Part shown: piece after piece, positions 8,281 to 22,669 of the stretch | Numbering within the stretch: the stretch's first letter is position 1 | Layout of the letters: each line of letters begins with the position of its first letter | NCBI RefSeq assembly: GCF_017876815.1 | Contig: NZ_JAGIOS010000001.1 | Span: forward strand, 1,050,001-1,082,000 | From: Sinorhizobium meliloti | GTDB lineage: Bacteria; Pseudomonadota; Alphaproteobacteria; Rhizobiales; Rhizobiaceae | Direction of reading: 5' to 3' | DNA length: 32,000 nucleotides | The notes under the pieces: generated by a model | What the model was told of the DNA's origin: nothing | The model's database searches: none | The model's input: the letters and a program-made list of their open reading frames with translations, nothing else | Made by a program: the position numbers and the translations under genes

Positions 8281-8291
8281 TCTCTCCTCCT

Positions 8292-8409: not shown

Positions 8410-8500
8410 AGATCAAGCCAGCCGCGGCGGCTATCCCGAATCTCGACAGGCCTTGGAGCACTTTCAGGAAAAGTGCGGAACGGTTTTCGCCCTGCCCACG

Positions 8501-8533: not shown

Positions 8534-8555
8534 ATCATTTCAAGTCCGTCAACGA

Positions 8556-10262
8556 TTACTCGTTGTTCTGGCGGTTCTTGAGCGCAGCGCCCAGAATGTC
8601 GCCGAGCGAAGCACCCGAGTCGGAAGAGCCGAACTGAGCGACGGCTTCCTTCTCTTCCGCGATTTCCAGAGCCTTGATCGACAGCTGGATCTTGCGGTCC
8701 TTCTTGGAGAAGTTGGTGACCCGCGCATCGACGGTCTGGCCGACCGAGAAACGCTCCGGACGCTGTTCGTCGCGATCGCGCGAGAGGTCGGCGCGACGGA
8801 TGAAGGCGGTGACGTCCTCGTGGTTGACGAGCCGCACTTCGATGCCGCCATCGTTGACGCCGATGACTTCAGCCGAAACGACGGCGTTCTTGCGCAGTTC
8901 GCCGGAAGCGGCAGCTTCACCGACCGCATCACGGCCGAGCTGCTTGATGCCGAGCGAGATGCGCTCCTTGTCGACGTCCACATCGAGAACGACAGCACGG
9001 ACGACGTCGCCCTTGTTGAATTCTTCGATGACCTGCTCGCCCGGGCGGTTCCAGTCGAGGTCGGAGAGGTGGACCATGCCGTCGACATCGCCATCGAGGC
9101 CGATGAACAGACCGAATTCGGTCTTGTTCTTGACTTCGCCTTCGACTTCCGTGCCAGCCGGATGGCTATGCGCGAAGGCCTGCCACGGGTTCTCGAGCGT
9201 CTGCTTGAGGCCGAGCGAGATGCGGCGCTTGGTCGGGTCGACTTCGAGAACGACCACGTCGACTTCCTGGCTCGTGGACAGGATCTTGCCGGGGTGAACG
9301 TTCTTCTTCGTCCAGGACATTTCGGAGATGTGTATCAGGCCTTCGATGCCCGGCTCCAGCTCGACGAACGCACCGTAGTCGGTGATGTTCGTGACGGTAC
9401 CGGAGATCTTCTTGCCGACCGGATACTTCGCACCGATGCCATCCCACGGATCGGACTCGAGCTGCTTCATGCCGAGCGAGATGCGGTGGGTTTCCTGGTT
9501 GATGCGGATGATCTGAACCTTGACCTGCTGGCCGATGTTCAGGATCTCCGACGGATGGTTGACGCGGCGCCATGCCATGTCGGTGACGTGCAGCAGGCCG
9601 TCGATGCCGCCGAGGTCGACGAACGCACCGTAATCGGTGATGTTCTTGACGACACCCTCGACAACCTGGCCTTCCTCGAGGTTCTGAACGATTTCAGAAC
9701 GCTGCTCGGCGCGGGACTCTTCGAGAACCGTGCGGCGCGAAACGACGATGTTGCCGCGGCGCTTGTCCATCTTGAGGATTTCGAAGGGCTGCGGGTTGTG
9801 CATCAGCGGCGTCACGTCGCGGATCGGACGGATGTCGACCTGCGAACGCGGCAGGAAGGCTACGGCGCCGTCGAGATCGACGGTGAAGCCGCCCTTGACC
9901 TGGTTGAAGATGATGCCTTCGACGCGTTCGCCGGCTTCGAACTTGACTTCCAGGCGCTGCCAGCTCTCTTCGCGGCGGGCCTTCTCGCGCGAGAGGACTG
10001 CTTCGCCGAGTGCGTTTTCAATGCGCTCGACATAGACTTCGACTTCGTCGCCGACCTTCAGCGTGCCGTCCTTGGCCTTGGCGCCGAATTCCTTCAGCGG
10101 TACGCGGCCTTCGACCTTCAGGCCGACGTCGACGATTGCGACGTCTTTTTCGATCGCCGTGACGATGCCCTTGGCGACATAGCCTTCGGCGAGGTCCGTC
10201 TTGGCGAAGGACTCTTCCAGAAGCGCTGCGAAATCATCACGGGTGGGGTTGGTTGCAGACAT
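8556..10262 (-). CDS. rpsA: 30S ribosomal protein S1
   Basis: 568 aa from MSATNPTRDDFAALLEESF, with AGGAG upstream. Six S1 motifs repeat through the protein (for example GxVxxIxDYGAFVDLGGIDGLLHVTDMAW). Confidence 0.97.
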   Translation of the reverse strand: MSATNPTRDDFAALLEESFAKTDLAEGYVAKGIVTAIEKDVAIVDVGLKVEGRVPLKEFGAKAKDGTLKVGDEVEVYVERIENALGEAVLSREKARREESWQRLEVKFEAGERVEGIIFNQVKGGFTVDLDGAVAFLPRSQVDIRPIRDVTPLMHNPQPFEILKMDKRRGNIVVSRRTVLEESRAEQRSEIVQNLEEGQVVEGVVKNITDYGAFVDLGGIDGLLHVTDMAWRRVNHPSEILNIGQQVKVQIIRINQETHRISLGMKQLESDPWDGIGAKYPVGKKISGTVTNITDYGAFVELEPGIEGLIHISEMSWTKKNVHPGKILSTSQEVDVVVLEVDPTKRRISLGLKQTLENPWQAFAHSHPAGTEVEGEVKNKTEFGLFIGLDGDVDGMVHLSDLDWNRPGEQVIEEFNKGDVVRAVVLDVDVDKERISLGIKQLGRDAVGEAAASGELRKNAVVSAEVIGVNDGGIEVRLVNHEDVTAFIRRADLSRDRDEQRPERFSVGQTVDARVTNFSKKDRKIQLSIKALEIAEEKEAVAQFGSSDSGASLGDILGAALKNRQNNE

Positions 10263-10425
10263 ATAATCTCCTGCTGCATCTCCTGCCGGAGACGCATATG
10301 CGCCGGGGGTTGGTGTTAGACAGGCCTGAACCCAGTCCGCTCCTGTCATGGAGCAATCCGGCGCGTGGACGGAATTTCAGGCTATTTTCAAGAAGGAGAC
10401 CGGCTGGGCCGGGATCAGGCCTTCT

Positions 10426-11063
10426 TCAAATTTTCTCTTTCAGGGCGGCGTCGACCAGCGTCTTCGCCGCCTGGAATGCCGCCTCTATACTCATTTCGGA
10501 AGTATCAAGCAAGTGCGCGTCCTCGGCAGGTCTCAAAGGACTGTCGGCACGCCCCATGTCGCGCCCGTCGCGCTTCTTCACGTCCTCGAAAATCGCGGTG
10601 TAGTCAGCCTTTCCGCCGCCGGCGACGATCTCGTCATGGCGCCGCTTCGCCCGCACTTCGGGGGAAGCGGTCACATAGAGCTTCACCGCCGCATCAGGGC
10701 AGACGACCGTGCCGATGTCGCGCCCGTCGAGGACGGTACCCGGCTCCTTGCGCGCGAAGGCTCGCTGCGCCTCGACCAGCGCCCGGCGCACGGCCGGCAT
10801 GACGGCGATCTTCGACGCCGCCTCGCCGATCGAATGCTCGGAAAGCACGGCGCGATCGAGCCCGGAAAGGTCCACCTCGCGCGCCGTCTTCTCGGCCACC
10901 GCCTCGTCGTCGAGCGGCAATCCGGCATCCATGAGTGCCTTTGCGGTCGCGCGATAGGTCAGCCCCGTGTCGAGATGGTGGAAGCCGTATTGCTCGGCGA
11001 TCCGGCGCGAGAGCGTTCCCTTGCCGGCGGCCGCAGGTCCATCGATGGCGATTACGAAGGTCA

Positions 11064-11064
<1 letters not shown>
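10426..11064 (-). CDS. cmk: (d)CMP kinase (cytidylate kinase)
   Basis: [38 protein letters not shown] contains the P-loop. The start ATG overlaps the aroA stop by 1 nt (TGATG). The track ORF extends upstream spuriously. Confidence 0.93.
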
Positions 11065-12545
<1,481 letters not shown>

Positions 12546-12597
12546 TCATCCTCCTGCTACGAAGAAAATGACGGCCGGAGCTCGCGGAAGTTTATCT

Positions 12598-12641
12598 TTG
12601 ACAGAACTCGCCAAGATGATTATGGGGACCGGCTAATCATC
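12598..12641 (+). promoter_or_regulatory. Putative promoter of the TIGR02300 gene with an overlapping 8-bp-arm inverted repeat
   Basis: TTGACA (12598-12603), 17 nt spacer, TATGGG (12621-12626). The inverted repeat gatgatta (12615-12622) / taatcatc (12634-12641) spans the -10 region. Confidence 0.3.
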
Positions 12642-12715
12642 ATAAGCTTGATACTTTTCTAACCGCCGGCTTTCCGGCAAGAGCCGGCTCGCCGGCCATT
12701 CAAGAGGCTTTGACT

Positions 12716-13105
12716 GTGGCAAAACCGGAACTTGGAACAAAGCGCATCGACCCGGAAACGGGGCGCAAATTCTACGATCTGAACCGTGATCCGATCGTCT
12801 CCCCCTACACGGGCAAGTCCTATCCGCTGTCCTTCTTCGAAGAGACCTCCGTCGCCAAGGTGCTCGAGAAGGAAGAAGAGGAAGACGTCAAGGAAGTCGA
12901 TACCGAGAACACGGAAGTCGAACTCGTCTCGCTCGAGGAAGCGGATGACGAGGCCTCGGGCGGCGACGATCTGCCGGATCTCGGCGACGACGATGTCGAG
13001 ATCGAGGGCGACGACGACGACACCTTCCTCCAGACCGACGACGAAGACGATGACGACGACATGAGCGACATCATCGGCGTTTCCGACGAGGACGACGACG
13101 TCTGA
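12716..13105 (+). CDS. TIGR02300 (FYDLN_acid) family protein with acidic C-terminal tail
   Basis: A GTG start with AAGAGG 8 nt upstream gives MAKPELGTKRIDPETGRKFYDLNRDPIVSPYTGKSYPLSFF, followed by a long Asp/Glu-rich tail. Confidence 0.8.
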   Translation: MAKPELGTKRIDPETGRKFYDLNRDPIVSPYTGKSYPLSFFEETSVAKVLEKEEEEDVKEVDTENTEVELVSLEEADDEASGGDDLPDLGDDDVEIEGDDDDTFLQTDDEDDDDDMSDIIGVSDEDDDV

Positions 13106-13256
13106 ACAGACCGGCGACGCGGGCGGATCAGCGCCCGCATGCCTGTCCGCAAGCGTTTCGAAAGGCGCACGAAACCGCCCCATCCATCGAGCGCGATCGG
13201 CATCGAAGCATCCGGCCGGAACCGAAAAATAAATCGTCCCGGCCCTCACTTTTCGG

Positions 13257-13286
13257 CTTGCCATCTGCACCTAGCAGAAGTAATAA
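13257..13286 (+). promoter_or_regulatory. Putative promoter of tRNA-Ala
   Basis: CTTGCC (13257-13262), 17-18 nt spacer, TAATAA (13281-13286), about 65 nt upstream of the tRNA. It resembles the rhizobial CTTGAC-N17-CTATAT consensus. Confidence 0.3.
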
Positions 13287-13350
13287 GCCGCCACTCGCCG
13301 GGCACAACGCGCCTCGCGATCTTCCCGGACCGGCAAAGCCGGACCCTGAT

Positions 13351-13426
<76 letters not shown>

Positions 13427-13486
13427 AACTCCCCACCCAACAAATTTGATGTTTATTTTCAGTGGCTTAGCCTTGGTCAATCAACT

Positions 13487-13511
13487 CATTCTGACCAACC
13501 ATTCTGACCAA
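13487..13511 (+). repeat. Tandem 13-mer (cattctgaccaac x2), left copy; candidate integrase arm-type site
   Basis: 25/25 identical to 21503-21527 in the same orientation. It lies 58 nt inside attL. Confidence 0.5.
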
Positions 13512-13939
13512 GCGCCCTATACGTACTACCGGATGTAGTCAGACCTACCGCTACGCAGGTACGATCTCGCTTCATGTTGCGACTGGACGATGTGCGCCGC
13601 GCGACCTCTACAGCTATGGCTGCCTGTAGAAGGGCCTTGTAAGAACCACTGCTCCAGCCTCCTCCACGCCCCCCCTGCGACCGTCCTGTCCCTTCTCCCC
13701 ATTGCCGATTGCCCCTCGGTTAAGGGAAGAACCGTGCTTTGGCTTCTGCGCTCTCAACGTCGCAGGCTGATTACCCCCCACTTAGGGAGAAGAACTGCGT
13801 CACACTCGCCCCGACAGTCGTGTTCGGTTCGTCTCGCTCACGTTCTCTCCTCCTTCCCTCAGTTGCTGTCACCGCAGTCGAGACTTCTCTTGAGGACAGG
13901 GGAAGAGAGAGATCAGGCCAATGTCATAAGAGAGAATGA

Positions 13940-14615
13940 ATGTCAGAACTTACCCCCGATCTGGAGGCGCTCAAGCAAGCCTCTACGGCCGATTTATTGG
14001 ATGCCATCGAGGCCCTCTTAAAGATCTCCGTCCGGCCATGTACTACCGCTCACGAGCCTGCCCGTCTGCCCTGGAGCAGCATCATTGAAATCCCCTCTGT
14101 CTTCCAGGTTAGAGGGGAACACACAGACGAGCGACACGCGACTGCTCTCTTCGATGTCCTCAAGCGCGAGAACGACCTGAGGCCGGTTACCGTCTGGCGG
14201 TGCGGCGAGGGAGCAGTGTTACTTGATGGTCATCATCGCCTCCATGCTTACAAGCGGATGCAAGGGCGTTCTCGGGTAGCCGAGGGGGTGCCTGTTGTTT
14301 GGTTCAGGGGCAATTTGGACGACGCGATCAAGGCGGCGGCCGAAGCCAACAATGAGGTCAAACTGCCGCTTAACACCCATCAGCGGATGAACCTGGGGTG
14401 GAGGCTAGTCGTCCTTGATAGGTACTCGAAGAAGGAGACAGCGAAGATGGCTGGCATCAGCGAACGCACAGTGGCTAACATGCGTACCGTCAGGAAGACC
14501 TTGGAGTTGTCAGGAGTCGGTCGTGATGAGCTACCGCTGAACTGGTGGAGAGCATCGAAAGAGGCCCGAAGGTTGGATGCTCGCGAGGAGCGACTGGACT
14601 ATGAGGATTTCAAGT
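13940..14615 (+). pseudogene. ParB/Srx-domain plus HTH protein, 5' part (gene interrupted by IS21-family element)
   Basis: ParB N-terminal motif VLLDGHHRLHAY and HTH KKETAKMAGISERTVANMR. The reading frame runs into the IS at 14616 and terminates there at 14695. It resumes in frame at 17222. Confidence 0.8.
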
Positions 14616-14741
14616 TGCCGATTCCGATGAAGCCGCCCCTTTGTTCCGAGATGATTGCGCCCCCGGTTTCCGGGATGATCTCGCCCCCTGTTTAGTGGGG
14701 TCTGCAGGCGATGATTGTTGTCAGTTCATTCAGGCGAGGTG

Positions 14742-15479
14742 TCAAGCTTTGCGCGGTAGATTTCGGCGCAGACTATCGCCGCTCAATTCGATGCGGTGGG
14801 CATTGTGGACCAACCTGTCGAGTATGGCATCGGCGTAGGTTGGGTCGCCAATGACGCCGTGCCATGCGGACACGGGAAGTTGGCTGGTAATGATCGTTGA
14901 TTTGCGTCCATAGCGATCTTCGAGGATTTCCAGCAGGTCGTGGCGGGCCTGTTCGTTGAGCGGCTCGAGCCCCCAATCATCCAGTATCAGGAGCTGAACA
15001 TGGCCCAAGGTCCGTTGCAGGCGGGCGTAGCGGCCATCACCGCGCGCGAGCGCAAGCTGGGCAAACAGCCTTGGGACACGCTGATAGAGAACTGAGCGAT
15101 CGTCTCGGCAAGCCTTGTGGCCGAGAGCGCAAGCCAACCAACTCTTTCCGACACCCGAGGGGCCGCAAATGGCCAGATTGTCATGGGCGTTGATCCAGTC
15201 GCCACCGAGCAGCTTCATGAAGAGAGCACGGTCGAGGCCGCGGTCGGCGCGATAGTCGACATCTTCTGGGGTGGCCTGGTGGCGAAGCTTGGCAAACCTG
15301 AGGCGTGCCGCAAGCTTCCGATCGTAACGGGAGCTCCATTCCCGTTCGAGCAGCAGTCCGAGCCATTCGGCGTGCGAGAGATGTTCGGCTTCGCCGTTGG
15401 CAACAAGTTCGCCAAAGGCCTTTGCCATGCCGGCCAGGCCCATGGCATTCAATTTATCCAGTGTTGGATGGGCAAGCAT
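14742..15479 (-). CDS. istB: IS21-family helper ATPase IstB
   Basis: 245 aa with Walker A GPSGVGKSW and LLILDDWG. The N-terminus MLAHPTLDKLNAMGLAGMAKAF is typical of IstB. Confidence 0.93.
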   Translation of the reverse strand: MLAHPTLDKLNAMGLAGMAKAFGELVANGEAEHLSHAEWLGLLLEREWSSRYDRKLAARLRFAKLRHQATPEDVDYRADRGLDRALFMKLLGGDWINAHDNLAICGPSGVGKSWLACALGHKACRDDRSVLYQRVPRLFAQLALARGDGRYARLQRTLGHVQLLILDDWGLEPLNEQARHDLLEILEDRYGRKSTIITSQLPVSAWHGVIGDPTYADAILDRLVHNAHRIELSGDSLRRNLPRKA

Positions 15480-15491
15480 CTTTCGTTCTCC

Positions 15492-17042
15492 TTAGTGGTA
15501 ATAGCGAGGTCCGCGGATGTTGGCGTGATGGATCTGTTCATGCGGCGCCGCTCCATTTGAGGCAGCCGTCCGGTCAAGGTGATTGTCGAGGATGGATCGC
15601 ACCGAGCCATAGGTTCGTGCGCCAATCTCCAACGCACGGCCGCAAGCGGCATTGACCCTGTCGCGGCCGAAGCTCTTGTTGAGGCGGATGATGCCGAGGC
15701 AAGCTCGAAAGCCCTGCTCGGGATGAGGCCTGTCGGCAAGAATGCGCTCGCACAACAGCGCAACATCCGGCCCCATCGCAGAGGCTTCGCGTTGAATCCG
15801 TTCAATCGTCCAGTCGGCAAAGCGGCGATGCGCAGAGGGCATATGATCGGGGATCGTCGTGTGCTTGCCGTTGCCGCTGGAGCGCCGGTGAGCGGCAATT
15901 CGCTCGCCCTTGTGGAAGATCTCGATCGTATTGGCGGTGATACGAGCCTCGACCTGCTCGCGGGCAAAGCGATAGGGAACGGAATAATAGTGCCGCTCGA
16001 TCTCGACGTGATAATCCAGCCCGGCGCGCCGGATACGCCATTCGGCAAAGACATAACGTTCGACAGGCAGCGGTCGCAAAGCCGGACGATCAAGCTCCTC
16101 GAACAATTGGCGGCGCGTGGCGCCGACACGGCGCAGAACGCGCTTATCATTGAGATCATGGAGCAATTGGCCAATCGCCGCATTGACCTCGGCCAAACTA
16201 TAGAATGTGCGATGGCGCAGCCGGCCCAACAGCCAACGTTCGACGATACGAACCGCAGCTTCCACTTTCGCCTTGTCCCGCGGGCGTCGCGGCCGCGTCG
16301 GCAAGACGGCGCTGCCATAATGGGCCGCCATCCCGCAATACGTCCGGTTGACCTGGGGATCGAAGTGGCAGGCCTTGATGATCGCTACCTTGGCATTGTC
16401 GGGAACCAGCAAGGCTGGCGCACCGCCAAAGAACTCCAGCGCCAGGATATGGCATTCAATCCAGTCGGGAAGCGTCTCGCTCCAACGTGCCTGCGCATAT
16501 GAAAGGCTGGATGCTCCCAGAACCGCCACGAACAGGTGCGCCTGCCGTGTCTTGCCGGACAGCCGATCAACGACAACCGTGACCGTGTCGCCGGCGTAGT
16601 CGACGAACAGCTTGTCGCCGGCCGCGTGATCCTGCCGCATCGTCACAGGCAACTTCATCGCCCAGCCGCGGTAGAGGTCACAGAAGCGACTGTAACGATA
16701 GCCCTCCGGATAACGGCTGATGTATTCGTCCCAAAGGATCTGCAGCGTCATATGCTTGCGCTTCAGCTCGCGGTGGACCTGCGTCCAGTCCGGCTCAGGG
16801 CTCCGACGATGACCCGTCTTCGTCCCGCCTGCCTTGTAAAGCGCCGCTTCCAGGACTGCATCGCTGATGTCGTCACCCAACGGCCACGATAGCTCCGCAA
16901 TGGCCGCACGCCGAAGCGTCTCGCGCACCGTCGATGGCGCAGCTCCAACCCGAACCGCGATCGACTTGTGGCCAAGTCCTTGTTCGAAGCGATATCTCAA
17001 TATCTCGCGGACACGCCGCATCTCCAGTCTCTCCGCAGGCAT
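15492..17042 (-). CDS. istA: IS21-family transposase IstA
   Basis: 516 aa with an N-terminal HTH (RRVREILRYRFEQGLGHKSIAVRVGAAPSTVRETLRR) and a DDE core (FVDYAGDT..., LLVPDNAKVAI...). Confidence 0.93.
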   Translation of the reverse strand: MPAERLEMRRVREILRYRFEQGLGHKSIAVRVGAAPSTVRETLRRAAIAELSWPLGDDISDAVLEAALYKAGGTKTGHRRSPEPDWTQVHRELKRKHMTLQILWDEYISRYPEGYRYSRFCDLYRGWAMKLPVTMRQDHAAGDKLFVDYAGDTVTVVVDRLSGKTRQAHLFVAVLGASSLSYAQARWSETLPDWIECHILALEFFGGAPALLVPDNAKVAIIKACHFDPQVNRTYCGMAAHYGSAVLPTRPRRPRDKAKVEAAVRIVERWLLGRLRHRTFYSLAEVNAAIGQLLHDLNDKRVLRRVGATRRQLFEELDRPALRPLPVERYVFAEWRIRRAGLDYHVEIERHYYSVPYRFAREQVEARITANTIEIFHKGERIAAHRRSSGNGKHTTIPDHMPSAHRRFADWTIERIQREASAMGPDVALLCERILADRPHPEQGFRACLGIIRLNKSFGRDRVNAACGRALEIGARTYGSVRSILDNHLDRTAASNGAAPHEQIHHANIRGPRYYH

Positions 17043-17213
17043 CCCGTTCCTTCCTCGTCACGTCGAAGGAAGAAACTTCACACCAGCAGAACACCCACGC
17101 CAGATGCTTTCCGATGGGGGCGGCATCATCTCGGAATCAGGGGGCGACTATTTCTCGGAATTGGGGGGCGAGATCATTTCGGAATCAGGGGGCGGATTGC
17201 CTCGGAATTTGCA

Positions 17214-17427
17214 TTTCAAGTACGAGCAGGCGAAGAAGTGGGCAGATCAGCTCGCAAGAACCTTCTCCACGAAGCTTGCAACGTCTCCAGAGATAGCCGC
17301 CATTGCACTCGATATATATCTCGGGGCGAGGGCAGCAGAGGTTGGTCGGCTTCTTCTTGTGGAGACTGGTGATCCCTTGCGGGAGCAGATCGAGGACGAG
17401 ATGGGGGATGATGATCTACCGTTCTGA
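17214..17427 (+). pseudogene. ParB/Srx-HTH protein, 3' part (after the IS21 insertion)
   Basis: Removing the IS and one TSD copy joins ...EERLDYEDFK to YEQAKKWADQLARTFSTKLATSPEIAAIALDIYL...DDLPF* in frame. This gives a 293-aa pre-insertion product. Confidence 0.75.
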
Positions 17428-17608
17428 CGCCTCTAGGTGTGCATCTCATAGACGGTGCAAAATGCATACTCTTAACGTCAGCCACGAATGTCTCGTGGAG
17501 TATTTCGTGATCTCAATCATGATCTGAGGATTAGGTGTGTCCCCCCCCTCCCTCCCGCACCAATTTGGTTGTACATCAAGTACAGCTCGCGCATCACGAG
17601 GGGGAACC

Positions 17609-18187
17609 ATGCTTGAGTTAGTGGACCAGTTCATTCAATCCGGCATTGGGCAGGCCCTGATCATTGCTGCGATTACCGCAGCGGCCGGCAGGTTCTTCAC
17701 CCCGCGAGGTAAGGTGATATGGGCGGTTTCCCACCAACACCATTACCGCATGCCCAACCTGAATGATGGCGGTTTTTTTCCAGTAGTCACTCAGCAGGTC
17801 TGGTTCCAAAACGTAGGCAGATCAGCCATTCAAGACATAGAAATTGTGCTGAACTGGAAGCCTCAACACTTCGAGATCTGGGACCCAAGAAAGTGGGATG
17901 GAGAGCCTCTTTCAGACGGCAGATGGGTGATCCGTGTGCCGTCATTGAACGCGAAGGAGTTCTTTACCGTCTCAATGATCGACACTGTGACTGATCTTCC
18001 TGCGGTCTTGAACGTCCGTTGCTTAGGAGGGGCCGCAACCAACGTGAGGATGGGACCGCAGCGGGTGTTCCCGATGTGGTTTAACGTAGGTGTTGCAGTC
18101 TTCATGTTCATCGGAGTTGTTGCAACGCTTTACTGGCTTCTCCAGTTCGTGATCGCCGCATTGTCACCACCGCGCCTTGACCGTTAG
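17609..18187 (+). CDS. Hypothetical two-TM membrane protein (192 aa), no family recognised
   Basis: GAGGGGGA RBS 4 nt before the ATG at 17609. N-terminal TM (IGQALIIAAITAAAGRFF), ~130-aa beta-rich middle domain, and C-terminal TM (MWFNVGVAVFMFIGVVATLYWLLQFVIAAL). Lower G+C than the core genome. Confidence 0.6.
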   Translation: MLELVDQFIQSGIGQALIIAAITAAAGRFFTPRGKVIWAVSHQHHYRMPNLNDGGFFPVVTQQVWFQNVGRSAIQDIEIVLNWKPQHFEIWDPRKWDGEPLSDGRWVIRVPSLNAKEFFTVSMIDTVTDLPAVLNVRCLGGAATNVRMGPQRVFPMWFNVGVAVFMFIGVVATLYWLLQFVIAALSPPRLDR

Positions 18188-18206
18188 GGTATACCTCAGC
18201 GGACGC

Positions 18207-18290
18207 TGTCAACCGGCGCTCCAGACTGTCCGGTAGGGTTGACATACCGCTTACGGACATGCTTTCATGTGGACACTACCCTATCGGACA
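18207..18290 (+). promoter_or_regulatory. Putative res/operator region of the serine recombinase
   Basis: Four TGTCC/GGACA pentamers lie within 64 bp (18227, 18255, 18271, 18286). They include the inverted pair tgtccggta (18227-18235) / ttacggaca (18251-18259). A second, interleaved inverted repeat is tgtcaacc (18207-18214) / ggttgaca (18237-18244). TTGACA occurs at 18239-18244. Confidence 0.4.
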
Positions 18291-18301
18291 TGGAGTTCCA
18301 A

Positions 18302-18937
18302 ATGGCAACGTTCCTCTACGCCCGCGTCTCGACCACCGAGCAGTCCCTTGATCACCAGCGAACGCAAGCAGAAAAGGCTGGCTTCACCTTCGACCACGTG
18401 ATCGCAGATCATGGCGTGTCCGGTGTCTCTGTCCTGATGAAAGATCGCCCGGAAGGAAGACGCCTCTTCGACATGCTCCGGAATGGTGACGTGCTGGTCG
18501 TACGCTGGATAGATCGCCTTGGCCGAAACTACGCTGATGTGACAGACACGATCCGCGAGTTCATTCGCCGGGGCGTAATCATCCGCACGATCATCAACAA
18601 CATGACCTTTGACGGCTCCACGACAGACCCCGTCCAAATGGCCGTCAGAGACTCCCTGATCGCTTTCATGGCTGCGACAGCACAGGCCCAGGCGGAAGCC
18701 ACGAAGGAAGCTCAGCGGGCCGCCATTGCCCAGCTGAAGGCCAAGGATGATGGTAGCTACAAGGGACGGAAGCCAAGCTACACGCGCGAACAGTTCTCAC
18801 AGGTCTTGGACATGGACGGTAACGGCGCGTCCGTCTCGGAGATCGCCAAAACCACACGCCTGTCCCGCCAGACGGTCTACCGGATCAAGGAAGACCCGGG
18901 AGCGGCTGAAAAGTCTTTGGCGGTATGGGGCGCGTGA
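18302..18937 (+). CDS. Small serine recombinase (resolvase/invertase family)
   Basis: MATFLYARVSTTEQSLDHQ carries the catalytic Ser motif. Also RWIDRLGRN and a C-terminal HTH (ASVSEIAKTTRLSRQTVYRIK). GGAG lies 6 nt upstream; the track start at 18239 is TTG and covers the res-like region. Confidence 0.9.
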   Translation: MATFLYARVSTTEQSLDHQRTQAEKAGFTFDHVIADHGVSGVSVLMKDRPEGRRLFDMLRNGDVLVVRWIDRLGRNYADVTDTIREFIRRGVIIRTIINNMTFDGSTTDPVQMAVRDSLIAFMAATAQAQAEATKEAQRAAIAQLKAKDDGSYKGRKPSYTREQFSQVLDMDGNGASVSEIAKTTRLSRQTVYRIKEDPGAAEKSLAVWGA

Positions 18938-18969
18938 GGCTGATAATGCCTTTTGATCCTAGGTCGCTG

Positions 18970-20034
18970 TCACCCATCCCACACGTGTGCGCTCGCGGCA
19001 TCATAGAACTTAACTGCGAGCGGCCATCTCTCACCTCTCAGCCGAGACCTCAGGTTCATGAGAGACTGCGCCTGCTTGATCGCTTCGCGATTTGTGGCGC
19101 TTTCGGGATCTCCGTACAACCCAACTAAGAGATTGGCGACCCCACCCGCCGCAATGCAGCGCAAGACATGAGCATCATTGGGCGCGAGAGAGTGCCCGAA
19201 GACCACCAGCGCACCGGTTCCTGCTTTCATGCAGGCTTCGAAGCTCCGAAGAGCCTTATGGAGGTATGCGTTGTGGAGAATGCGCTCCATTTTGACTGAC
19301 GAGGTGCCCTCGGCAACGAAGACCGGAAACTTGTCCTCGTTAAGAGCGTCGCGGACCTGGTCGACAATCGGCAGATCTGTCTTTGACCAAGTGTACTTCG
19401 TTATCTCAGTCCCGCGGTCGAACAGGTGCAACGCGCCGTGTAGGTAGGAGACGGTGGCGCTAGACGCCTGCTGCCAAGAAACGTAGGGAGCGTCTTCGTT
19501 CTCGATTGGATGACGGAAACCATCATCATGGTTGAGTGGCTGATCCTCGAGGTCGCTGTGCATCAACGCCCAATACAAGAGGACGTCATAGTTCAGGGTG
19601 TAGATAGATCGAAACGGCCTCAAGAATGATCGGCAGGAGCGGTATTGATCGGCAGAGACTTCGTATGGCCGACTGGGATGGCGGCTCGCGATCACCTGGA
19701 CCAATACATCCTTGACAATTTCGGCGTCGTTTCGAAGGCCAGCGGCAAGTTTGGCGAGTTTCGGCCGGTATACCTCGAGAATTCGTGCGGTGTCCGAGAG
19801 GTGGCGGATGATCACTTCAAAGTCCCGCGTTCCCAGCGCGTCAAAGATCTTCCGTAGGTAAGGTGCCCTGGAGAAGTCTGCGTTCTCGTACAGTGAGCCG
19901 TACGTGAAGATGTCTGGCTTCAGCGCGATGCTGAAACCGTTTCCGAGCAACAGGTACTTGTTCGTCGCGCGAGCTATAGACTGCATCGCGTCGGGGTACT
20001 GCATCACTTCAACCAAGAGAGCCTCCGAAACCAC
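18970..20034 (-). CDS. SIR2-like (DUF4917-type) protein, putative NAD+-consuming effector
   Basis: 354 aa from a GTG start, or 344 aa from the ATG at 20004. Four motifs occur in the order seen in SIR2_2/ThsA-type domains: LLLGNGFS (28-35), TLNYD (146-150), YLHG (197-200) and VVFGHSLAPNDAHV (277-290). Confidence 0.8.
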   Translation of the reverse strand: MVSEALLVEVMQYPDAMQSIARATNKYLLLGNGFSIALKPDIFTYGSLYENADFSRAPYLRKIFDALGTRDFEVIIRHLSDTARILEVYRPKLAKLAAGLRNDAEIVKDVLVQVIASRHPSRPYEVSADQYRSCRSFLRPFRSIYTLNYDVLLYWALMHSDLEDQPLNHDDGFRHPIENEDAPYVSWQQASSATVSYLHGALHLFDRGTEITKYTWSKTDLPIVDQVRDALNEDKFPVFVAEGTSSVKMERILHNAYLHKALRSFEACMKAGTGALVVFGHSLAPNDAHVLRCIAAGGVANLLVGLYGDPESATNREAIKQAQSLMNLRSRLRGERWPLAVKFYDAASAHVWDG

Positions 20035-20158
20035 TGCGTATCATCGGCATCGCGGGAGTAACCCGTCAGTCACACGACTCGAACGATGCTATTTGAAGTG
20101 GAGCAAATGGAAGATGCACTTGCAAGGATTGCCGGAGATCTCGGCTGCTGGAGCGAGG

Positions 20159-21505
20159 TTATCCACCGCTAGGGAGCATCACCGCCTCAATACACGCCTT
20201 CAACTGAGCTGCGGACGCTCCGGTGGTATAAACGCCAAAGGTGATGTCCTTCTTCTTGTCTGCCTTGTGGCCCACGACATCCCTGATCGTCTCGATCTGT
20301 TGGCCAGCGTGCCGTGCTTCGGTGATGAACCATCTCCGAGCAGAGTGAAAGTTGACGAGGCTGCGTCTCTTACCCGGCCGCTTGTCGTCTACCTGGAGCA
20401 GCACCCGAAAGCGGTTGAAGCGTTTGCCGAATGTGTCCCCAGGGTCACGCAAGCCTGCCAATTCGTGGAAGAGCCAGTCCCTAGCTTCCTTCCCCTCGGT
20501 TCGCCGCTGAATGATCTCCGCCAGAGCAGGATGGATCGGCACCTTACGAGCGGCTGCTTCGGTCTTGCCTTGCTGAATGTCGAAGACCCCATCGTGAACG
20601 TCTTCGATCCACAGCGTCAGCACCTCCGCTTGCCGCATACCTGAGAGGCAGGAGATCGTCAGCGCATCTCGCAGAAGAAGCTCCCAGTCGGGATCGATGC
20701 CGTCCGGGTACCGAGCATAGAGCAGCCGCTTCAACTCATCCTCGGTATATGGTCGCTCTTCCTCTCTCTCCCCCCTCTCCACGCGCCTGCGCTTGCTAAC
20801 CACTTCCTGACCAAGCCAGGGATTATCCTTCAACTCCCCCGTCACGTGTCCTCTCATAAGCAGGTATTCCCAGTAGCCGCGAAGAGCCGTCATGTGCTTC
20901 TTCGCCGTGCTACGGTCCATCGGCTCGATCACTTCCGTCACGTAGCGACCCGCTGTCTTCCGGGTTATGTCAGGCAGCCTGAACTTCTCAGCAAGGCACC
21001 ATCGGGCAAAGTGGTTGAGGACGCCCCGACGTTCAGCGGTGGTCTTTGGGGCTAGCTTGATGGCACCGAGGTACGCATCGAAGTGGTGGTCAATAGGATG
21101 GTCACCAACGAAGGCGCGGGCGAAGCGTTCGCGGGCCTCTTCCTTCAGGGCGTCCTCTTCCGCCTCAGCGGCCCAAACGAGGTCTTGCAGGGCCTCACTA
21201 TCACCGCTCTGCGTGACGGCAGCCATAGCTTCCCGGTAAATCTGCCCTCGCTGCTCGGCTATCTCTTCCGCTGAGGTGATGATCTCCCCAGCCTTCACGC
21301 GGGCGAAGAGCGTTCGAACTTCCCGTTCAAGGATGTCGCGCTGTGCCATGGCTTGTTTGATGTCGCCCGTGTTCAGGCTTTGCATGTACATCGTCTTCCC
21401 GTCGAAGTGGTCTAGACAGGCAGCAGGTACCGCCATGCGAAACCACCAAGTCTGCCCCCGCAAGTCCAGCAATCGCTTGGACCCTTTGCTGCTCTTTCCC
21501 GCCAT
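20159..21505 (-). CDS. int: Tyrosine recombinase / phage-type integrase of the island
   Basis: 448 aa from ATG 21505 (MAGKSSKGSKRLLDLRGQTWWFRMAV). Catalytic signature: LSGMRQAEV (Arg), HSARRWF (H-x-x-R), VGHK (His), FGVYTTG (Tyr). The track start at 21547 is TTG. Confidence 0.9.
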   Translation of the reverse strand: MAGKSSKGSKRLLDLRGQTWWFRMAVPAACLDHFDGKTMYMQSLNTGDIKQAMAQRDILEREVRTLFARVKAGEIITSAEEIAEQRGQIYREAMAAVTQSGDSEALQDLVWAAEAEEDALKEEARERFARAFVGDHPIDHHFDAYLGAIKLAPKTTAERRGVLNHFARWCLAEKFRLPDITRKTAGRYVTEVIEPMDRSTAKKHMTALRGYWEYLLMRGHVTGELKDNPWLGQEVVSKRRRVERGEREEERPYTEDELKRLLYARYPDGIDPDWELLLRDALTISCLSGMRQAEVLTLWIEDVHDGVFDIQQGKTEAAARKVPIHPALAEIIQRRTEGKEARDWLFHELAGLRDPGDTFGKRFNRFRVLLQVDDKRPGKRRSLVNFHSARRWFITEARHAGQQIETIRDVVGHKADKKKDITFGVYTTGASAAQLKACIEAVMLPSGG

Positions 21506-21527
21506 TCTGACCAACCATTCTGACCAA
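21503..21527 (+). repeat. Tandem 13-mer (cattctgaccaac x2), right copy; overlaps the int start codon
   Basis: 25/25 identical to 13487-13511. It lies 59 nt inside attR, and the int ATG is the complement of 21503-21505. Confidence 0.5.
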
Positions 21528-21586
21528 CCTATAACCGGGATTAGCAAGTAAAAACAGGATTTTCAATGGGGTAGCGCCGGAGATCG

Positions 21587-21610
21587 TCGATCCCGCTTAG
21601 CTCCACCAAA
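21587..21610 (+). repeat. attR core (duplicated tRNA-Ala 3' end)
   Basis: 24/24 identity with 13405-13428. Confidence 0.85.
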
Positions 21611-21881: not shown

Positions 21882-22669
21882 ATGTTTCTCGTCTCGAAAA
21901 TCTTCTGGCTCGTCGCCCAGCCGCTGTCGCTCGCCTTCCTCGCCCTCGTCGTCGGGGTGCTGCTTATGCTCGGCCGTTTCCGCCGCAGCGGCGGTACTTT
22001 GAGCGCCTTCGGGCTCGCCGTCCTCTTCGTCACACTCTTCACCACCGCCGGCTCCTATTTCCTGCAGATCCTCGAGGATCGGTTTCCCCGCCCCACGCCG
22101 GAGCCCACGGAGCTTGCCTGCATCATCGTGCTCGGCGGCGCCTTCGAGAATGTGGTGATGGCCAGCCGCGGCGGCATGGAGCTGAACCAGGCGGCCGAGC
22201 GGTTCGTCGAGACCTTGAGGCTCGCGCAGGCCTATCCGCAGGCACGCATCCTTGTCTCGGGCGGAGACGGGTCGCTCAGCGGCATCTACGAGGGCGACGC
22301 GCATGCTTCGGAAAATTTCTTCGGGACCTTCGGCATCGGATCCGACCGGCTGATCCGCGAGGGAGAATCGCGGACGACCTTCGAAAACGCACGCTATACC
22401 AGGGATCTGCTGGCCAAGAACGGGCTTGAGCGTTGCGCACTCGTGACCTCCGCATACCACATGCCGCGCTCTATCGGTCTTTTTCGCGCAAACGGCATGG
22501 AGGTCACGCCCTGGCCGACGGATTATCGCACGAGCGGCAAGGTGCGGCTCGGCTTCGATTTCACCAGCCCTCGCTCAACGCCCAATTGGCGACGACGGCC
22601 GCCAAGGAGTGGACCGGGCTCGTTGCCTATTATCTCCTCGGCCGGACGCAGACGCTGCTGCCGCGGTAG
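21882..22669 (+). pseudogene. ElyC/SanA/YdcF (DUF218) family protein with a -1 frameshift near 22563-22570
   Basis: From MFLVSKIFWLVAQPLSL the protein has N-terminal TM helices and a DUF218 core (IIVLGG..., ILVSGG..., LVTSAYHMPRS). After GFDFT the frame drifts into Arg/Pro-rich sequence that overlaps the next gene. The -1 frame instead reads QPSLNAQLATTAAKEWTGLVAYYLLGRTQTLLPR*. The span is 788 nt, one short of a multiple of 3. Confidence 0.7.

What the first reader, a model, noticed from the sequence alone, without database searches (positions are those of the whole stretch)
13405..21610. tRNA-Ala(GGC)-targeted 8.2-kb island with an unusual minimal cargo
A perfect 24-bp direct repeat of the tRNA-Ala 3' end brackets 8182 bp. 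The insert lies between two blocks of conserved housekeeping genes: aroA-cmk-rpsA and the TIGR02300 gene on one side, and the ydcF-like gene, TRIC, irr and fabABI on the other. The island has no phage structural, conjugation or replication genes. It carries only an integrase, a SIR2-like protein, a serine recombinase, a 2-TM protein and a ParB-like regulator or nuclease, plus a secondary IS21 insertion. No excisionase ORF of 60 aa or more is visible. This composition fits a small integrative defence or accessory island (possibly mobilisable) rather than a prophage remnant.
Basis: partly seen in the sequence, partly recalled or inferred. Interest (0 to 1): 0.7.

Follow-up and report, generated by a model that had tools for sequence, protein, structure and literature searches.

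The report
Minimal tRNA-Ala integrative defence island
An 8.2-kb mobile island is inserted at the end of a tRNA-Ala gene in a Sinorhizobium meliloti strain; it belongs to a widespread, apparently undescribed family of very small integrating elements (integrase, resolvase and a ParB-like protein) that carry candidate anti-phage genes, and this copy has been damaged by an insertion sequence.

Summary
A perfect 24-bp copy of the tRNA-Ala(GGC) 3' end brackets 8182 bp. The closest related genome has exactly the empty site. The repeat occurs once only in 39 related species.

The insert is a 5.6-kb integrative element plus a 2.6-kb IS21-family insertion. The IS has an 8-bp target duplication and splits the ParB-like gene.

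Comparison with more than 90 related loci changes the reading of the "cargo". The tyrosine integrase (DUF6538 type, with conserved arm repeats), the small serine recombinase and the ParB-like protein form a recurring backbone. The recombinase is a gamma-delta/Tn3-type resolvase with its own three-subsite res. The ParB-like protein has a DGHHR motif and an acidic tail ending in Phe. Elements with this backbone are 5-12 kb and sit at various tRNA genes.

Only the stretch between the ParB-like gene and the integrase, around the resolvase, varies. Here it holds DUF4917 (PADLOC candidate PDC-S21) and a 2-TM protein. Relatives carry TIR-TM, RosmerTA, a methylase with a nuclease-like protein, or OLD-like ATPases.

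No phage, conjugation or replication genes are present. The ParB-like family has no match in 50,697 phage or 72,556 plasmid records.

The island is already listed, uncharacterised, in a 2024 S. meliloti survey. How it transfers is unknown.

The parts
13351..13426 (+). tRNA-Ala(GGC) gene, the integration target (intact after insertion)
   Evidence: ARAGORN; Rfam RF00005, 63 bits
13405..13428 (+). attL core: 22 nt of the tRNA 3' end plus 2 nt
   Evidence: perfect 24-bp direct repeat; the junction with the empty site in L001
13487..13511 (+). left arm repeat, 2 x CATTCTGACCAA, 58 bp from the core; candidate arm-type integrase binding site
   Evidence: 4 copies in the window against 0.09 expected; present at both ends of the sister islands L058, L059 and L062, 96-100% identical
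13713..13795 (+). non-coding leader of the ParB-like gene, with two direct copies of CCCnCnnTTAnGGRRAAGAAC (13713-13733 and 13775-13795); candidate operator or ParB-like binding sites
   Evidence: 2 matches against 0.11 expected; equivalent motifs in L058, L059 and L062; no credible ORF
13940..14615 (+). ParB-like (DGHHR) gene, 5' part (codons 1-225)
   Evidence: phrog_1033 ParB-like, E 1.7e-14; 65-70% identical to the intact 286-300 aa proteins of L058 and L059
14616..17213 (-). IS21-family insertion sequence, 2598 bp, with TG...CA ends, repeated terminal motifs, istA at 15492-17042 and istB at 14742-15479. The 8-bp target duplication TTTCAAGT is at 14608-14615 and 17214-17221.
   Evidence: Pfam IstB_IS21 1.8e-70 and Mu-transpos_C_2/rve; inverted terminal repeats; ends and target duplication
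17222..17427 (+). ParB-like gene, 3' part, ending in the acidic tail ...MGDDDLPF
   Evidence: removing the IS and one target-duplication copy restores an in-frame 293-aa ORF; AF2 model pLDDT 83.8; Foldseek top matches are ParB, Noc and KorB
17609..18187 (+). 192-aa protein with two predicted transmembrane segments (cargo; possibly a superinfection-exclusion-type protein)
   Evidence: no family hit; 83% identical homologues in the same position in the tRNA-Gln islands L151 and L152; 64% homologues near Arc-family regulator genes in small capsid-encoding elements of Agrobacterium
18178..18290 (+). res-like site with three subsites: I at 18178-18205 (12+4+12, central TATA), II at 18227-18259 (33 bp), III at about 18266-18290. 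The half-site is TGTCCGnTA.
   Evidence: clustered inverted half-sites; conserved in L064; the layout matches gamma-delta/Tn3 res as I recall it
18302..18937 (+). small serine recombinase (resolvase), 211 aa
   Evidence: Pfam Resolvase 7.9e-26 and HTH_7 8.8e-11; best solved-structure matches are gamma-delta and Tn3 resolvase, 3e-19; 90-93% identical in L064, L151 and L152
18970..20034 (-). DUF4917 (SIR2-like) protein, 354 aa; cargo and candidate single-gene anti-phage system PDC-S21
   Evidence: Pfam DUF4917 7.7e-63; PADLOC PDC-S21 9.2e-121 over the full length; the motifs GNGFS, LNYD and YLHG can be read in the translation
20159..21505 (-). tyrosine integrase, 448 aa, with an N-terminal DUF6538 domain and a catalytic domain
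   Evidence: Pfam DUF6538 5.9e-9 and Phage_integrase 6.8e-10; the R..K..HxxR..H..Y residues are conserved in 7 family members; 85-87% identical in sister islands at the same att site
21503..21527 (+). right arm repeat, 2 x CATTCTGACCAA, 59 bp from the core, overlapping the integrase start codon
21587..21610 (+). attR core (partial tRNA copy)

Best explanation
The region is a genuine site-specific integrative element in the 3' end of tRNA-Ala(GGC) of an S. meliloti RU11/001-type strain. It consists of a 5.6-kb element plus a later 2.6-kb IS21-family insertion.

Shown here: the boundaries, the empty site in relatives, the gene content, and membership of a recurring family. The family backbone has three parts. 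(i) A DUF6538-type tyrosine integrase with paired arm repeats about 60 bp either side of a 24-bp core. (ii) A gamma-delta/Tn3-type resolvase with a three-subsite res directly upstream of its gene. (iii) A ParB/Noc/KorB-fold DNA-binding protein with a DGHHR motif in place of the CTP-binding GERR motif, and an acidic tail ending in an aromatic residue. The stretch between the ParB-like gene and the integrase varies around the resolvase and mostly holds anti-phage defence genes or candidates. In this copy it holds DUF4917/PDC-S21 and a 2-TM protein.

Inferred mechanism: the integrase, using its arm sites, excises and integrates a circular form at the tRNA. The resolvase and res reduce multimers or concatemers of that circle to monomers. 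The ParB-like protein binds the repeated motif in its own leader and acts as a regulator or segregation factor of the episomal form, possibly recruiting a host or helper protein through its SSB-like tail. The cargo protects the host against phage; the SIR2-like protein would do so by NAD+ depletion.

The element has no replication, packaging or transfer genes, so it would have to spread as a hitcher on a helper that has not been identified. In this copy the IS21 insertion splits the ParB-like gene, so the element is probably fixed or impaired even though its att sites, integrase, resolvase and cargo are intact.
For: Boundaries and empty site.

Foreign composition.

IS21 target duplication and the restored ORF.

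Sister islands at the same att site, with the same 24-bp repeats and arm repeats but different cargo: L058 (6.6 kb), L059 (5.1 kb), L061-63.

The same trio with other integrases at other tRNA genes, bounded by tRNA-end repeats, 5.2-11.7 kb: L064, L065, L098, L105, L133, L135, L143, L151, L152.

Gene linkage: a resolvase gene lies within 4 kb of the ParB-like gene in 18 of 26 metagenome loci with at least 1 kb on both sides. An integrase lies within 6 kb in 12 of those 26.

res site. Resolvase affinity.

ParB-like fold. DGHHR in 165 of 175 family members and a terminal aromatic residue in 138 of 175.

Cargo: PDC-S21; TIR-TM, a PD-T7-4-like DUF4145 protein and a weak type IV restriction match; RosmerTA, a C5 methylase with a NOV_C protein, an OLD/AriA-like ATPase and an MzaB-like ATPase.

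Integrase catalytic residues.

No ParB-like match in the phage or plasmid collections.

Episomal context for the resolvase/ParB-like pair: L127 is a 5.0-kb contig with a 45-bp terminal overlap that carries a Rep3 initiator together with the same pair.
Against: Excision, circular forms and transfer have not been observed. No excisionase was found.

PDC-S21 is only a candidate defence system. The one DUF4917 protein studied experimentally, C. jejuni SliP, is described as a secreted deacetylase, not a defence protein (PMC10421069).

The roles assigned to the ParB-like protein and its tail are inference. No ParA partner is encoded.

The resolvase could be a leftover of plasmid ancestry rather than functionally needed.

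Some cargo genes in sister islands have no defence annotation (L058, L059, L135).

The linkage statistics come from contigs found through the ParB-like protein itself, and many of them are short.
Confidence: 0.8

Rival explanations
1. Phage satellite. The element is induced by a helper phage and packaged as concatemers in helper capsids. The resolvase monomerises it on entry. The ParB-like protein marks the element DNA for, or redirects, the helper's replication or packaging machinery.
For: Small size (5-12 kb) and defence cargo, as in the PICMI and VEIME elements described in the literature. Some VEIME subgroups carry both a serine and a tyrosine recombinase (PMC9618062). One IMG/VR contig (L067) has the resolvase, famX, ParB-like and integrase genes next to a Toprim/AAA_25 primase-helicase and a GpA-type large terminase. 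Homologues of the 2-TM protein lie in small capsid-encoding elements.
Against: The element has no AlpA, primase/rep, terS-like or capsid-remodelling gene. Only 1 strong ParB-like match turned up in 2.9 million viral contigs and none in 50,697 phage records. The terminase and primase association was seen only once.
Confidence: 0.25
2. Integrative mobilisable element moved by conjugation. A cryptic oriT in the non-coding leader is recognised by the relaxase of a resident rhizobial plasmid or ICE. The ParB-like protein acts as an accessory DNA-binding or nicking factor.
For: There is a conserved 0.5-kb non-coding leader with repeated motifs. ParB/Srx-fold proteins include nucleases (general knowledge). 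The rhizobial hosts carry several conjugative replicons (general knowledge). The resolvase has 62-70% identical homologues on alpha-proteobacterial plasmids.
Against: No relaxase, coupling protein or recognisable oriT was found. No ParB-like homologue was found on 72,556 plasmids. Relatives occur in marine and other metagenomes, where such helper plasmids are not evident.
Confidence: 0.15
3. Decayed prophage or other remnant. The genes are the surviving lysogeny module of a degraded temperate phage and no longer form an autonomous element.
For: The ParB-like protein, the 'DNA invertase' and the integrase all match PHROG families. L067 shows the module beside phage-type genes. This copy carries an IS insertion.
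Against: Both att cores are perfect and both arm sites are intact. The same compact gene order, bounded by tRNA repeats, recurs in at least 12 independent loci with no structural-gene debris. Every gene except the IS-split ParB-like gene is an intact ORF. The ParB-like family has no match in the phage collection.
Confidence: 0.05
4. The 24-bp repeat is a chance or dispersed repeat, and the region is ordinary variable chromosome.
For: None beyond the shortness of the repeat.
Against: Shuffles expect 0 matches. The breakpoints against the empty site are exact. The core is single-copy in 39 related species. A second copy is present only where an island is present.
Confidence: 0.01

Closest known systems
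Tycheposons (Prochlorococcus and other marine bacteria; bioRxiv 10.1101/2020.12.28.424599)
   Same: Both are small cargo-carrying elements that integrate through a tyrosine recombinase at the 3' ends of specific tRNA genes; tRNA-Ala(GGC) is among the targets. Both are flanked by partial tRNA copies and exchange modules between integrase lineages. A 'small serine recombinase' is listed among the tycheposon hallmark genes.
   Different: Many tycheposons carry primase, helicase or polymerase genes, and some carry capsid or terS genes; none is present here. No ParB-like hallmark is mentioned in that paper. Whether the integrases are related was not tested. The host is a soil alpha-proteobacterium.
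Minimal phage satellites: PICMI (PMC10803314) and marine VEIMEs (PMC9618062)
   Same: The size is 5-6 kb, the gene content is reduced, and there are no capsid-remodelling genes. Some VEIME subgroups carry both a tyrosine integrase and a serine recombinase. The PICMI abstract describes packaging as concatemers, for which a resolvase would make sense.
   Different: No primase/rep, AlpA, Fis or terS-like gene is present. No helper phage and no presence in virions have been shown. The family is nearly absent from the viral contig collection.
Gamma-delta/Tn3 resolvase-res system, and plasmid multimer-resolution systems
   Same: The 211-aa serine recombinase has a YARVST catalytic motif and a C-terminal HTH_7 domain. 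Its best solved-structure matches are gamma-delta and Tn3 resolvase. A res-like site of about 113 bp lies directly upstream, with three dyad subsites of 28, 33 and about 25 bp and the half-site TGTCCGnTA.
   Different: It is not part of a Tn3-family transposon: there is no transposase and there are no 38-bp inverted repeats. It sits inside a tRNA-integrating element beside a ParB-like gene. Recombination activity has not been tested.
ParB/Noc/KorB family (CTP-dependent DNA clamps)
   Same: The predicted fold, an N-terminal ParB/Srx domain followed by a helix-turn-helix DNA-binding domain, matches ParB, Noc, Spo0J and KorB structures.
   Different: The GERRxRA CTP-binding motif is replaced by an invariant DGHHR motif. 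No ParA partner is encoded. The C-terminal part is different and ends in an acidic tail with a terminal Phe or Tyr. The family is not captured by Pfam in the close members.
Defence-gene hotspots of small integrative elements (P4-like satellites, Vibrio phage-defence elements; general knowledge)
   Same: A conserved mobility backbone flanks a slot in which unrelated defence systems replace one another between otherwise similar elements.
   Different: The backbone genes are different and the host range is different. The helper, if there is one, is unknown.

Membership tests
tRNA-targeting tyrosine-recombinase genomic island | Direct repeat of the tRNA 3' end at both borders, with the tRNA gene left intact | tested here: met
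   24/24 identical repeat at 13405-13428 and 21587-21610; the tRNA is intact
tRNA-targeting tyrosine-recombinase genomic island | Empty target site in close relatives, with breakpoints exactly at the repeat | tested here: met
   L001 and L004; the core is single-copy in 39 species
tRNA-targeting tyrosine-recombinase genomic island | Tyrosine recombinase with the R-K-H-R-H-Y catalytic residues | tested here: met
   Pfam PF00589; GMR, GKT, HSARR, GH and VY are conserved in the alignment
tRNA-targeting tyrosine-recombinase genomic island | Excision to a circular attP form | not testable with these tools
   Needs PCR or read data from the strain
Prophage | Capsid, portal, terminase, tail or lysis genes | tested here: not met
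   No such match for any island protein in Pfam, NCBIfam or PHROGs
ICE / IME (conjugative or mobilisable element) | Relaxase, coupling protein or T4SS genes | tested here: not met
   None found in Pfam or NCBIfam
ICE / IME (conjugative or mobilisable element) | Functional oriT recognised by a helper relaxase | not testable with these tools
   There is a conserved leader with repeats, but no oriT model was available
Phage satellite (PICI, P4-like, PICMI) | Own replication module (primase/rep) and AlpA-type regulator | tested here: not met
   Absent
Phage satellite (PICI, P4-like, PICMI) | Helper-dependent induction and packaging | not testable with these tools
   The only indirect evidence is one viral contig, L067
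Tycheposon | tRNA-specific tyrosine recombinase, partial tRNA flanks and a cargo module | tested here: met
Tycheposon | Integrase belongs to the tycheposon integrase clade; replication hallmark genes present | not tested
   No tycheposon sequences were available for comparison. Replication genes are absent here.
Gamma-delta/Tn3-type resolvase system | Small serine recombinase with an N-terminal catalytic Ser and a C-terminal HTH | tested here: met
   Resolvase and HTH_7 domains; alignment to gamma-delta resolvase, including the YARVST motif
Gamma-delta/Tn3-type resolvase system | res site with three dyad subsites next to the gene | tested here: met
   Subsites at 18178-18205, 18227-18259 and about 18266-18290, conserved in L064. 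Subsite III is weak on one half.
Canonical ParABS partition system | ParB N-terminal domain plus HTH fold | tested here: met
   Profile and Foldseek matches to Noc, Spo0J, ParB and KorB
Canonical ParABS partition system | GERRxRA CTP-binding motif | tested here: not met
   Replaced by DGHHRLxAY; DGHHR is present in 165 of 175 members
Canonical ParABS partition system | Cognate ParA ATPase encoded alongside | tested here: not met
   No ParA-like gene in this island; none appears in the Pfam annotations or scans of the relatives examined
PADLOC candidate defence system PDC-S21 (DUF4917, SIR2-like) | Full-length match to the PDC-S21 model | tested here: met
   E 9.2e-121, residues 9-353 against model positions 3-335 of 336; Pfam DUF4917
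PADLOC candidate defence system PDC-S21 (DUF4917, SIR2-like) | Demonstrated protection against phage | not testable with these tools
   The three literature terms DUF6538, DUF4917 and PDC-S21 returned five papers; the only functional study concerns the C. jejuni DUF4917 protein SliP
IS21 family insertion sequence | istA (DDE transposase) and istB (ATPase) genes, TG/CA ends with multiple terminal repeats, and a short target duplication | tested here: met
   (8-bp TTTCAAGT)

The most novel reading that the evidence does not exclude
The island is a member of a widespread, so far undescribed class of minimal integrative episomes: tRNA-specific integrase, resolvase with res, and a DGHHR ParB-like protein. 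These elements shuttle anti-phage genes between bacteria without any replication, packaging or transfer genes of their own. On this reading, the ParB-like protein uses its SSB-like acidic tail ending in Phe or Tyr to recruit host or helper replication or packaging proteins to the excised circle. The resolvase turns concatemers back into monomers and, by recombining tandem islands at res, also drives cargo shuffling.
Probability: 0.35. Interest if true: 0.7.

Novelty: new variant of a known kind. Interest (0 to 1): 0.5.

Why it matters
Many genomic islands have no known means of transfer. This one shows a very small, repeatedly assembled toolkit: integrase with arm sites, resolvase with res, and an unusual ParB-like protein. 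That toolkit accompanies defence genes across Rhizobiaceae and in many environmental metagenomes. The ParB-like family has 847 representative clusters at 50% identity with E <= 1e-30, yet it has no match in the sequenced phage and plasmid collections searched. If the backbone functions are confirmed, the family would offer three things: a simple system for asking how minimal islands persist and spread; a marker (the DGHHR ParB-like gene) for finding defence-gene slots in alpha-proteobacteria; and a source of untested defence candidates (DUF4917/PDC-S21, the 2-TM protein, and the unknown cargo of sister islands) in an agriculturally important symbiont.

Tried and rejected
1. Excisionase. All ORFs of 25 aa or more in the 510-bp leader were inspected. 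None looks protein-like or is conserved in the sister islands. No AlpA or HTH_17 match was found in the island.

2. Structured RNA in the leader. Rfam finds only the tRNAs. RNAalifold on 4 sequences gives a fold with no net covariation support, so this is inconclusive.

3. Promoter and terminator scan. No enrichment over shuffles.

4. Invertase hypothesis. The only longer inverted repeat near the recombinase (17351-17374 and 18350-18373, 75% complementary) runs into coding sequence and is not conserved. It was rejected in favour of the res-type arrangement.

5. Two-gene system of DUF4917 plus the 2-TM protein. Rejected. The 2-TM protein travels with the ParB-like and resolvase genes in L151 and L152, which carry different cargo and no DUF4917.

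6. Phage or plasmid origin of the ParB-like protein. tblastn against both collections found nothing.

7. Terminase or primase linkage. Seen only in L067.

8. Circular contigs. Only L127 (a Rep3 plasmid) and L139 (2.8 kb, not analysed) have terminal overlaps. No excised attP form of an integrative member was found.

9. Literature. No paper was found for DUF6538, PDC-S21 or DGHHR, and none combining S. meliloti, genomic island, tRNA-Ala and integrase. The island appears only as a line in a supplementary table of PMC11476347.

Full report
**1. Observation**

ARAGORN and Rfam place tRNA-Ala(GGC) at 13351-13426 on the + strand. The 24-mer TCGATCCCGCTTAGCTCCACCAAA is the last 22 nt of the tRNA plus 2 nt. 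It occurs exactly twice in the 32-kb window, at 13405-13428 and 21587-21610, which is 8182 bp start to start. Shuffles expect no match even with 3 mismatches allowed.

A scan of one genome per species with the flanking DUF218 (ydcF-like) protein returned 55 loci, mostly Sinorhizobium, Ensifer and Shinella.

- In the closest locus (L001, Ensifer sp. USDA 6670, 96-98% identical), window 8467-13428 continues directly into the sequence that follows 21587 in the window. This is an exact empty site. S. medicae (L004) is empty too.
- The 22-nt core occurs once, inside the tRNA, in the 39 of the first 46 loci that hold it at all.

Composition also marks the insert as foreign. G+C is 57.8% (56.6% without the IS) against 62.5-62.9% in the flanks. 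GC3 is 61-72% against 77-86%.

The window is 100% identical to a contig labelled 'Mesorhizobium loti' (L057). It is 99.94% identical to the S. meliloti RU11/001 chromosome (L056, CP021219.1).

**2. Anatomy**

From the tRNA onwards the features are as follows.

- attL core, 13405-13428.
- Left arm repeat, a doubled CATTCTGACCAA at 13487-13511.
- A 0.5-kb non-coding leader with two copies of CCCnCnnTTAnGGRRAAGAAC.
- A ParB-like gene, split by an IS21-family element. The IS spans 14616-17213 (2598 bp). It has istA and istB, TG...CA ends and multiple terminal repeats. The 8-bp target duplication TTTCAAGT is at 14608-14615 and 17214-17221.
- Removing the IS and one duplication copy restores an in-frame 293-aa ORF. 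That ORF aligns end to end with the intact 286-300 aa proteins of sister islands.
- A 192-aa protein with two predicted transmembrane segments, 17609-18187.
- A res-like site, 18178-18290.
- A 211-aa serine recombinase, 18302-18937.
- On the opposite strand, a DUF4917 protein at 18970-20034 and the tyrosine integrase at 20159-21505.
- Right arm repeat, the same doubled CATTCTGACCAA at 21503-21527, overlapping the integrase start codon.
- attR core, 21587-21610.

The four arm-repeat copies compare with 0.09 expected by chance. They lie 58 and 59 bp from the core, in the same orientation. In an excised circle they would flank the core symmetrically.

The integrase keeps the catalytic R, K, HxxR, H and Y residues. 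No island protein matches a phage structural, lysis, replication, relaxase or T4SS family. No small ORF in the leader looks like an excisionase.

**3. The island belongs to a family, which changes what counts as cargo**

*Same att site.* Homologues of the integrase at 85-87% identity lie at the same tRNA-Ala/DUF218 locus in three other assemblies (counting the near-duplicate loci L061-L063 once). They have the same 24-bp repeats and the same 25-bp arm repeats. These are L058 (6.6 kb), L059 (5.1 kb) and L061-63. Each has the order integrase, variable gene(s), serine recombinase, optional small gene(s), ParB-like gene, tRNA. DNA homology between these islands breaks at the 3' end of int and near the 3' end of the ParB-like gene.

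*Other tRNA genes.* The same trio occurs with unrelated integrases (about 33-47% identical) at other tRNA genes, bounded by 14-20-bp tRNA-end repeats:

| Locus | Target | Size |
|---|---|---|
| L064 | tRNA-Gln | 8.0 kb |
| L151, L152 | tRNA-Gln in L151; no tRNA found in L152 | repeats not delimited |
| L065 | tRNA-Ser | 7.8 kb |
| L143 | tRNA-Leu | 5.2 kb |
| L135 | tRNA-Arg | 6.7 kb |
| L133 | tRNA-Arg | 8.2 kb |
| L105 | tRNA-Leu | 9.8 kb |
| L098 | tRNA-Leu | 11.7 kb |

*Mosaicism.* The window's resolvase is 90-93% identical to those of the tRNA-Gln islands. Its 2-TM protein is 83% identical to theirs. Its integrase is only 33% identical and its ParB-like protein 63%. Modules are evidently exchanged between integrase lineages.

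*Linkage statistics.* A metagenome scan with the ParB-like alignment gave 80 loci.

- Among the 26 loci with at least 1 kb on both sides, 18 have a serine recombinase within 4 kb.
- Among the same 26 loci, 12 have an integrase within 6 kb.

*A fourth gene family.* An approximately 225-aa protein, called 'famX' here, has a Cys-rich N-terminus (CxxGC...CxxHK...RRHG). It sits directly upstream of the ParB-like gene in 18 distant loci but is absent from this island.

*Other loci at this site.* L030 (Shinella) has a related integrase and resolvase beside the same DUF218 gene. L037 and L033 have partial ones. The site has therefore been used repeatedly.

**4. The backbone proteins**

*Resolvase.* The recombinase has Resolvase and HTH_7 domains. 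Its best solved relatives are gamma-delta and Tn3 resolvase, at E 3e-19. Immediately upstream of the gene are three dyad sites:

- Subsite I: TGACCGTTAGGG-TATA-CCTCAGCGGACG, 28 bp.
- Subsite II: 33 bp, after a 21-bp gap.
- Subsite III: about 25 bp and weaker on one half, after a gap of about 6 bp.

The half-site is TGTCCGnTA. As I recall it, gamma-delta res has subsites of 28, 34 and 25 bp with the half-site TGTCYRnTA, so the layout corresponds. The block is conserved with the gene in L064. L062 has an analogous cluster of a different half-site upstream of its own, unrelated resolvase. I conclude that this is a resolvase with its own res, not an invertase or a second integrase. Homologues at 62-70% identity occur on alpha-proteobacterial plasmids, including 10-13-kb ones.

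*ParB-like protein.*

- PHROG 1033 matches at E 1.7e-14.
- A family profile weakly matches Noc, Spo0J, ParB and sulfiredoxin.
- An AlphaFold model (pLDDT 83.8) matches ParB, Noc and KorB N-domain plus HTH structures.
- The CTP-binding GERR motif is replaced by DGHHR, which is invariant in the 30-sequence alignment and present in 165 of 175 family members.
- The C-terminus is acidic, with a mean of 6.2 Asp/Glu in the last 15 residues. It ends in an aromatic residue in 138 of 175 members: DF 62, PF 26, EF 17, DY 12.
- Here the tail is DDDLPF, which resembles the SSB C-terminal tip DDDIPF (general knowledge).
- The family is sizeable: 847 representative clusters at 50% identity with E <= 1e-30. 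It has no tblastn match in 50,697 phage records or 72,556 plasmid records.
- One TARA contig (L127, 5084 bp) has a 45-bp terminal overlap, so it is probably circular. It carries a Rep3 initiator together with a resolvase and a ParB-like gene. The pair therefore also occurs on a small plasmid, which fits a role in maintaining a circular episome.

**5. Cargo**

*This island.* DUF4917 matches the PADLOC single-gene candidate PDC-S21 over its full length at E 9e-121. It keeps the GxG, NYD and LHG motifs typical of SIR2-type NADases (read from the translation; the motif assignment is from general knowledge). The only experimentally studied DUF4917 protein is C. jejuni SliP, described as a sirtuin-like deacetylase (PMC10421069). 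Defence is therefore a candidate function only.

The 2-TM protein has 26 homologues, all in alpha-proteobacteria where a source is named. They lie either in the same slot of sister islands or near Arc-family regulator genes in small capsid-encoding integrated elements of Agrobacterium. That placement suggests, but does not show, a superinfection-exclusion-type role.

*Sister elements*:

- L064: TIR-TM, E 1e-63.
- L061-63: DUF4238 plus DUF4145 (weak PD-T7-4 match).
- L060: a ScoMcrA_N-domain protein with a weak PADLOC type IV restriction-enzyme match, plus DUF4145.
- L098: RosmerTA (RmrA 3e-72, RmrT), a trypsin-like protease and an MzaB-like ATPase.
- L105: a C5 methylase, a NOV_C-domain protein and an OLD/AriA-like ATPase.
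- L058, L059, L135: unknown proteins.

**6. How it most likely works**

*Shown:* integration at the tRNA, the backbone and cargo organisation, the res architecture and the IS disruption.

*Inferred:*

- The integrase, using its arm sites, excises and reintegrates a circle. The right arm site overlaps the int start codon, which suggests autoregulation.
- The resolvase and res resolve multimers or concatemers of that circle. They could also recombine tandem islands, which would fit the mosaicism seen around the resolvase gene.
- The ParB-like protein binds the leader repeats as a regulator or segregation factor. It may recruit a partner through its tail.
- The cargo defends the host.

With no replication, packaging or transfer genes, spread must depend on a helper. 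That could be phage packaging or transduction, or conjugative mobilisation. I could not discriminate between these. One viral contig (L067) shows the module next to a primase-helicase and a GpA-type terminase, but this is unique in the data. Because IS21 splits the ParB-like gene, this particular copy is probably impaired.

**7. Comparison with what is known, and novelty**

The element behaves like a tycheposon or other hitcher element. Tycheposons are tRNA-specific tyrosine-recombinase elements with cargo, and a small serine recombinase is listed among their hallmark genes. It also resembles minimal satellites such as PICMIs and VEIMEs; some VEIME subgroups carry both recombinase types. It lacks their replication and packaging genes, and its ParB-like hallmark is not mentioned in those papers.

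It fails the membership tests for prophage, ICE/IME and canonical ParABS systems. It meets those for a tRNA-targeting genomic island, a gamma-delta-type resolvase/res system and an IS21 element.

The island itself is already listed, as 'GI, 8.2 kb, 57.8% GC, tRNA gene 005, strain RU11/001', in a supplementary table of a 2024 survey of S. meliloti integration sites. That survey also lists a 9.3-kb island at the same tRNA gene in strain CXM1-105 (PMC11476347). Its content and family were not analysed there. My literature searches found no description of the integrase-resolvase-ParB(DGHHR) backbone, but the searchable library is limited.

**8. Verdict**

The kind of object is ordinary: a tRNA-integrated defence island. 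Its recurrent minimal backbone is a new variant worth follow-up. Interest is 0.5.

Noticed in passing
window 6724-8467: A 1.7-kb insertion absent from the closest genome, L001. It encodes a 404-aa DDE_5 transposase (E 1.4e-45), so it is another IS element in this strain.
   Followed up: partly
window 26869-28030: A 1.2-kb insertion absent from L001. In the RU11/001 annotation (L056) the corresponding gene is a DDE_Tnp_1 transposase, and RU11/001 carries two tandem copies where the window has one.
   Followed up: partly
window 21882-22663: The ydcF-like DUF218 gene next to attR is frameshifted near 22544-22571 (frame 3 to frame 2 against the L058 orthologue). No gene is called there in RU11/001. 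It is either a pseudogene or a shared sequencing error.
   Followed up: partly
window 17404-17427 (C-terminus of the ParB-like protein); family members P0122-P0296: The ParB-like family ends in an acidic tail with a terminal aromatic residue in 138 of 175 members. Here the tail is DDDLPF, almost the SSB C-terminal tip DDDIPF. This suggests a partner-recruiting peptide.
   Followed up: partly
L127 1-5084 (TARA_R110002020_G_C16309517_1): A 5.0-kb contig with a 45-bp terminal overlap, so probably circular. It carries a Rep3 initiator, HTH_17 and HTH_36/DnaD_N proteins, a serine recombinase and a DGHHR ParB-like gene. The resolvase/ParB-like pair therefore also exists on a small plasmid.
   Followed up: partly
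L067 1-11809 (IMGVR_UViG_3300048599_000759): A viral-collection contig in which the resolvase, famX, ParB-like and DUF6538-integrase genes lie next to a Toprim/AAA_25 primase-helicase and a GpA-type large terminase. It is the only such case found.
   Followed up: partly
L072 7422-8159, L076 8315-8989, L107 2198-2923 and 15 other loci: An unannotated family of about 225 aa ('famX') with a Cys-rich N-terminus (CxxGC...CxxHK...RRHG) lies directly upstream of the ParB-like gene in distant relatives. It has no Pfam match and is absent from this island.
   Followed up: partly
L153 3573-13612, L154, L155 (Agrobacterium): Homologues of the island's 2-TM protein lie in small integrated elements of about 10 kb at tRNA-Phe or tRNA-Val. 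L153, for example, carries an integrase, Arc-family regulators, an HK97-type capsid protein, a TMP_3 protein and an HTH_36 protein. These may be capsid-forming satellite-like elements.
   Followed up: no
L057 (GCA_003024615.1, PYJO01000009.1): A 9.8-kb contig deposited as 'Mesorhizobium loti' is 100% identical to the window, which is S. meliloti RU11/001-type sequence. This suggests a mislabelled or contaminated assembly. The contig ends inside the IS21 copy.
   Followed up: no
L060 9896-20443 (Rhizobium laguerreae): An integrase 71% identical to the window's, with the same tRNA-Ala core next to it, heads a larger island of more than 11 kb. That island carries a ScoMcrA_N-domain protein (weak PADLOC type IV restriction-enzyme match), an IS110, a DUF4145 protein and a resolvase, in a different chromosomal neighbourhood. 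The far end was not reached.
   Followed up: partly
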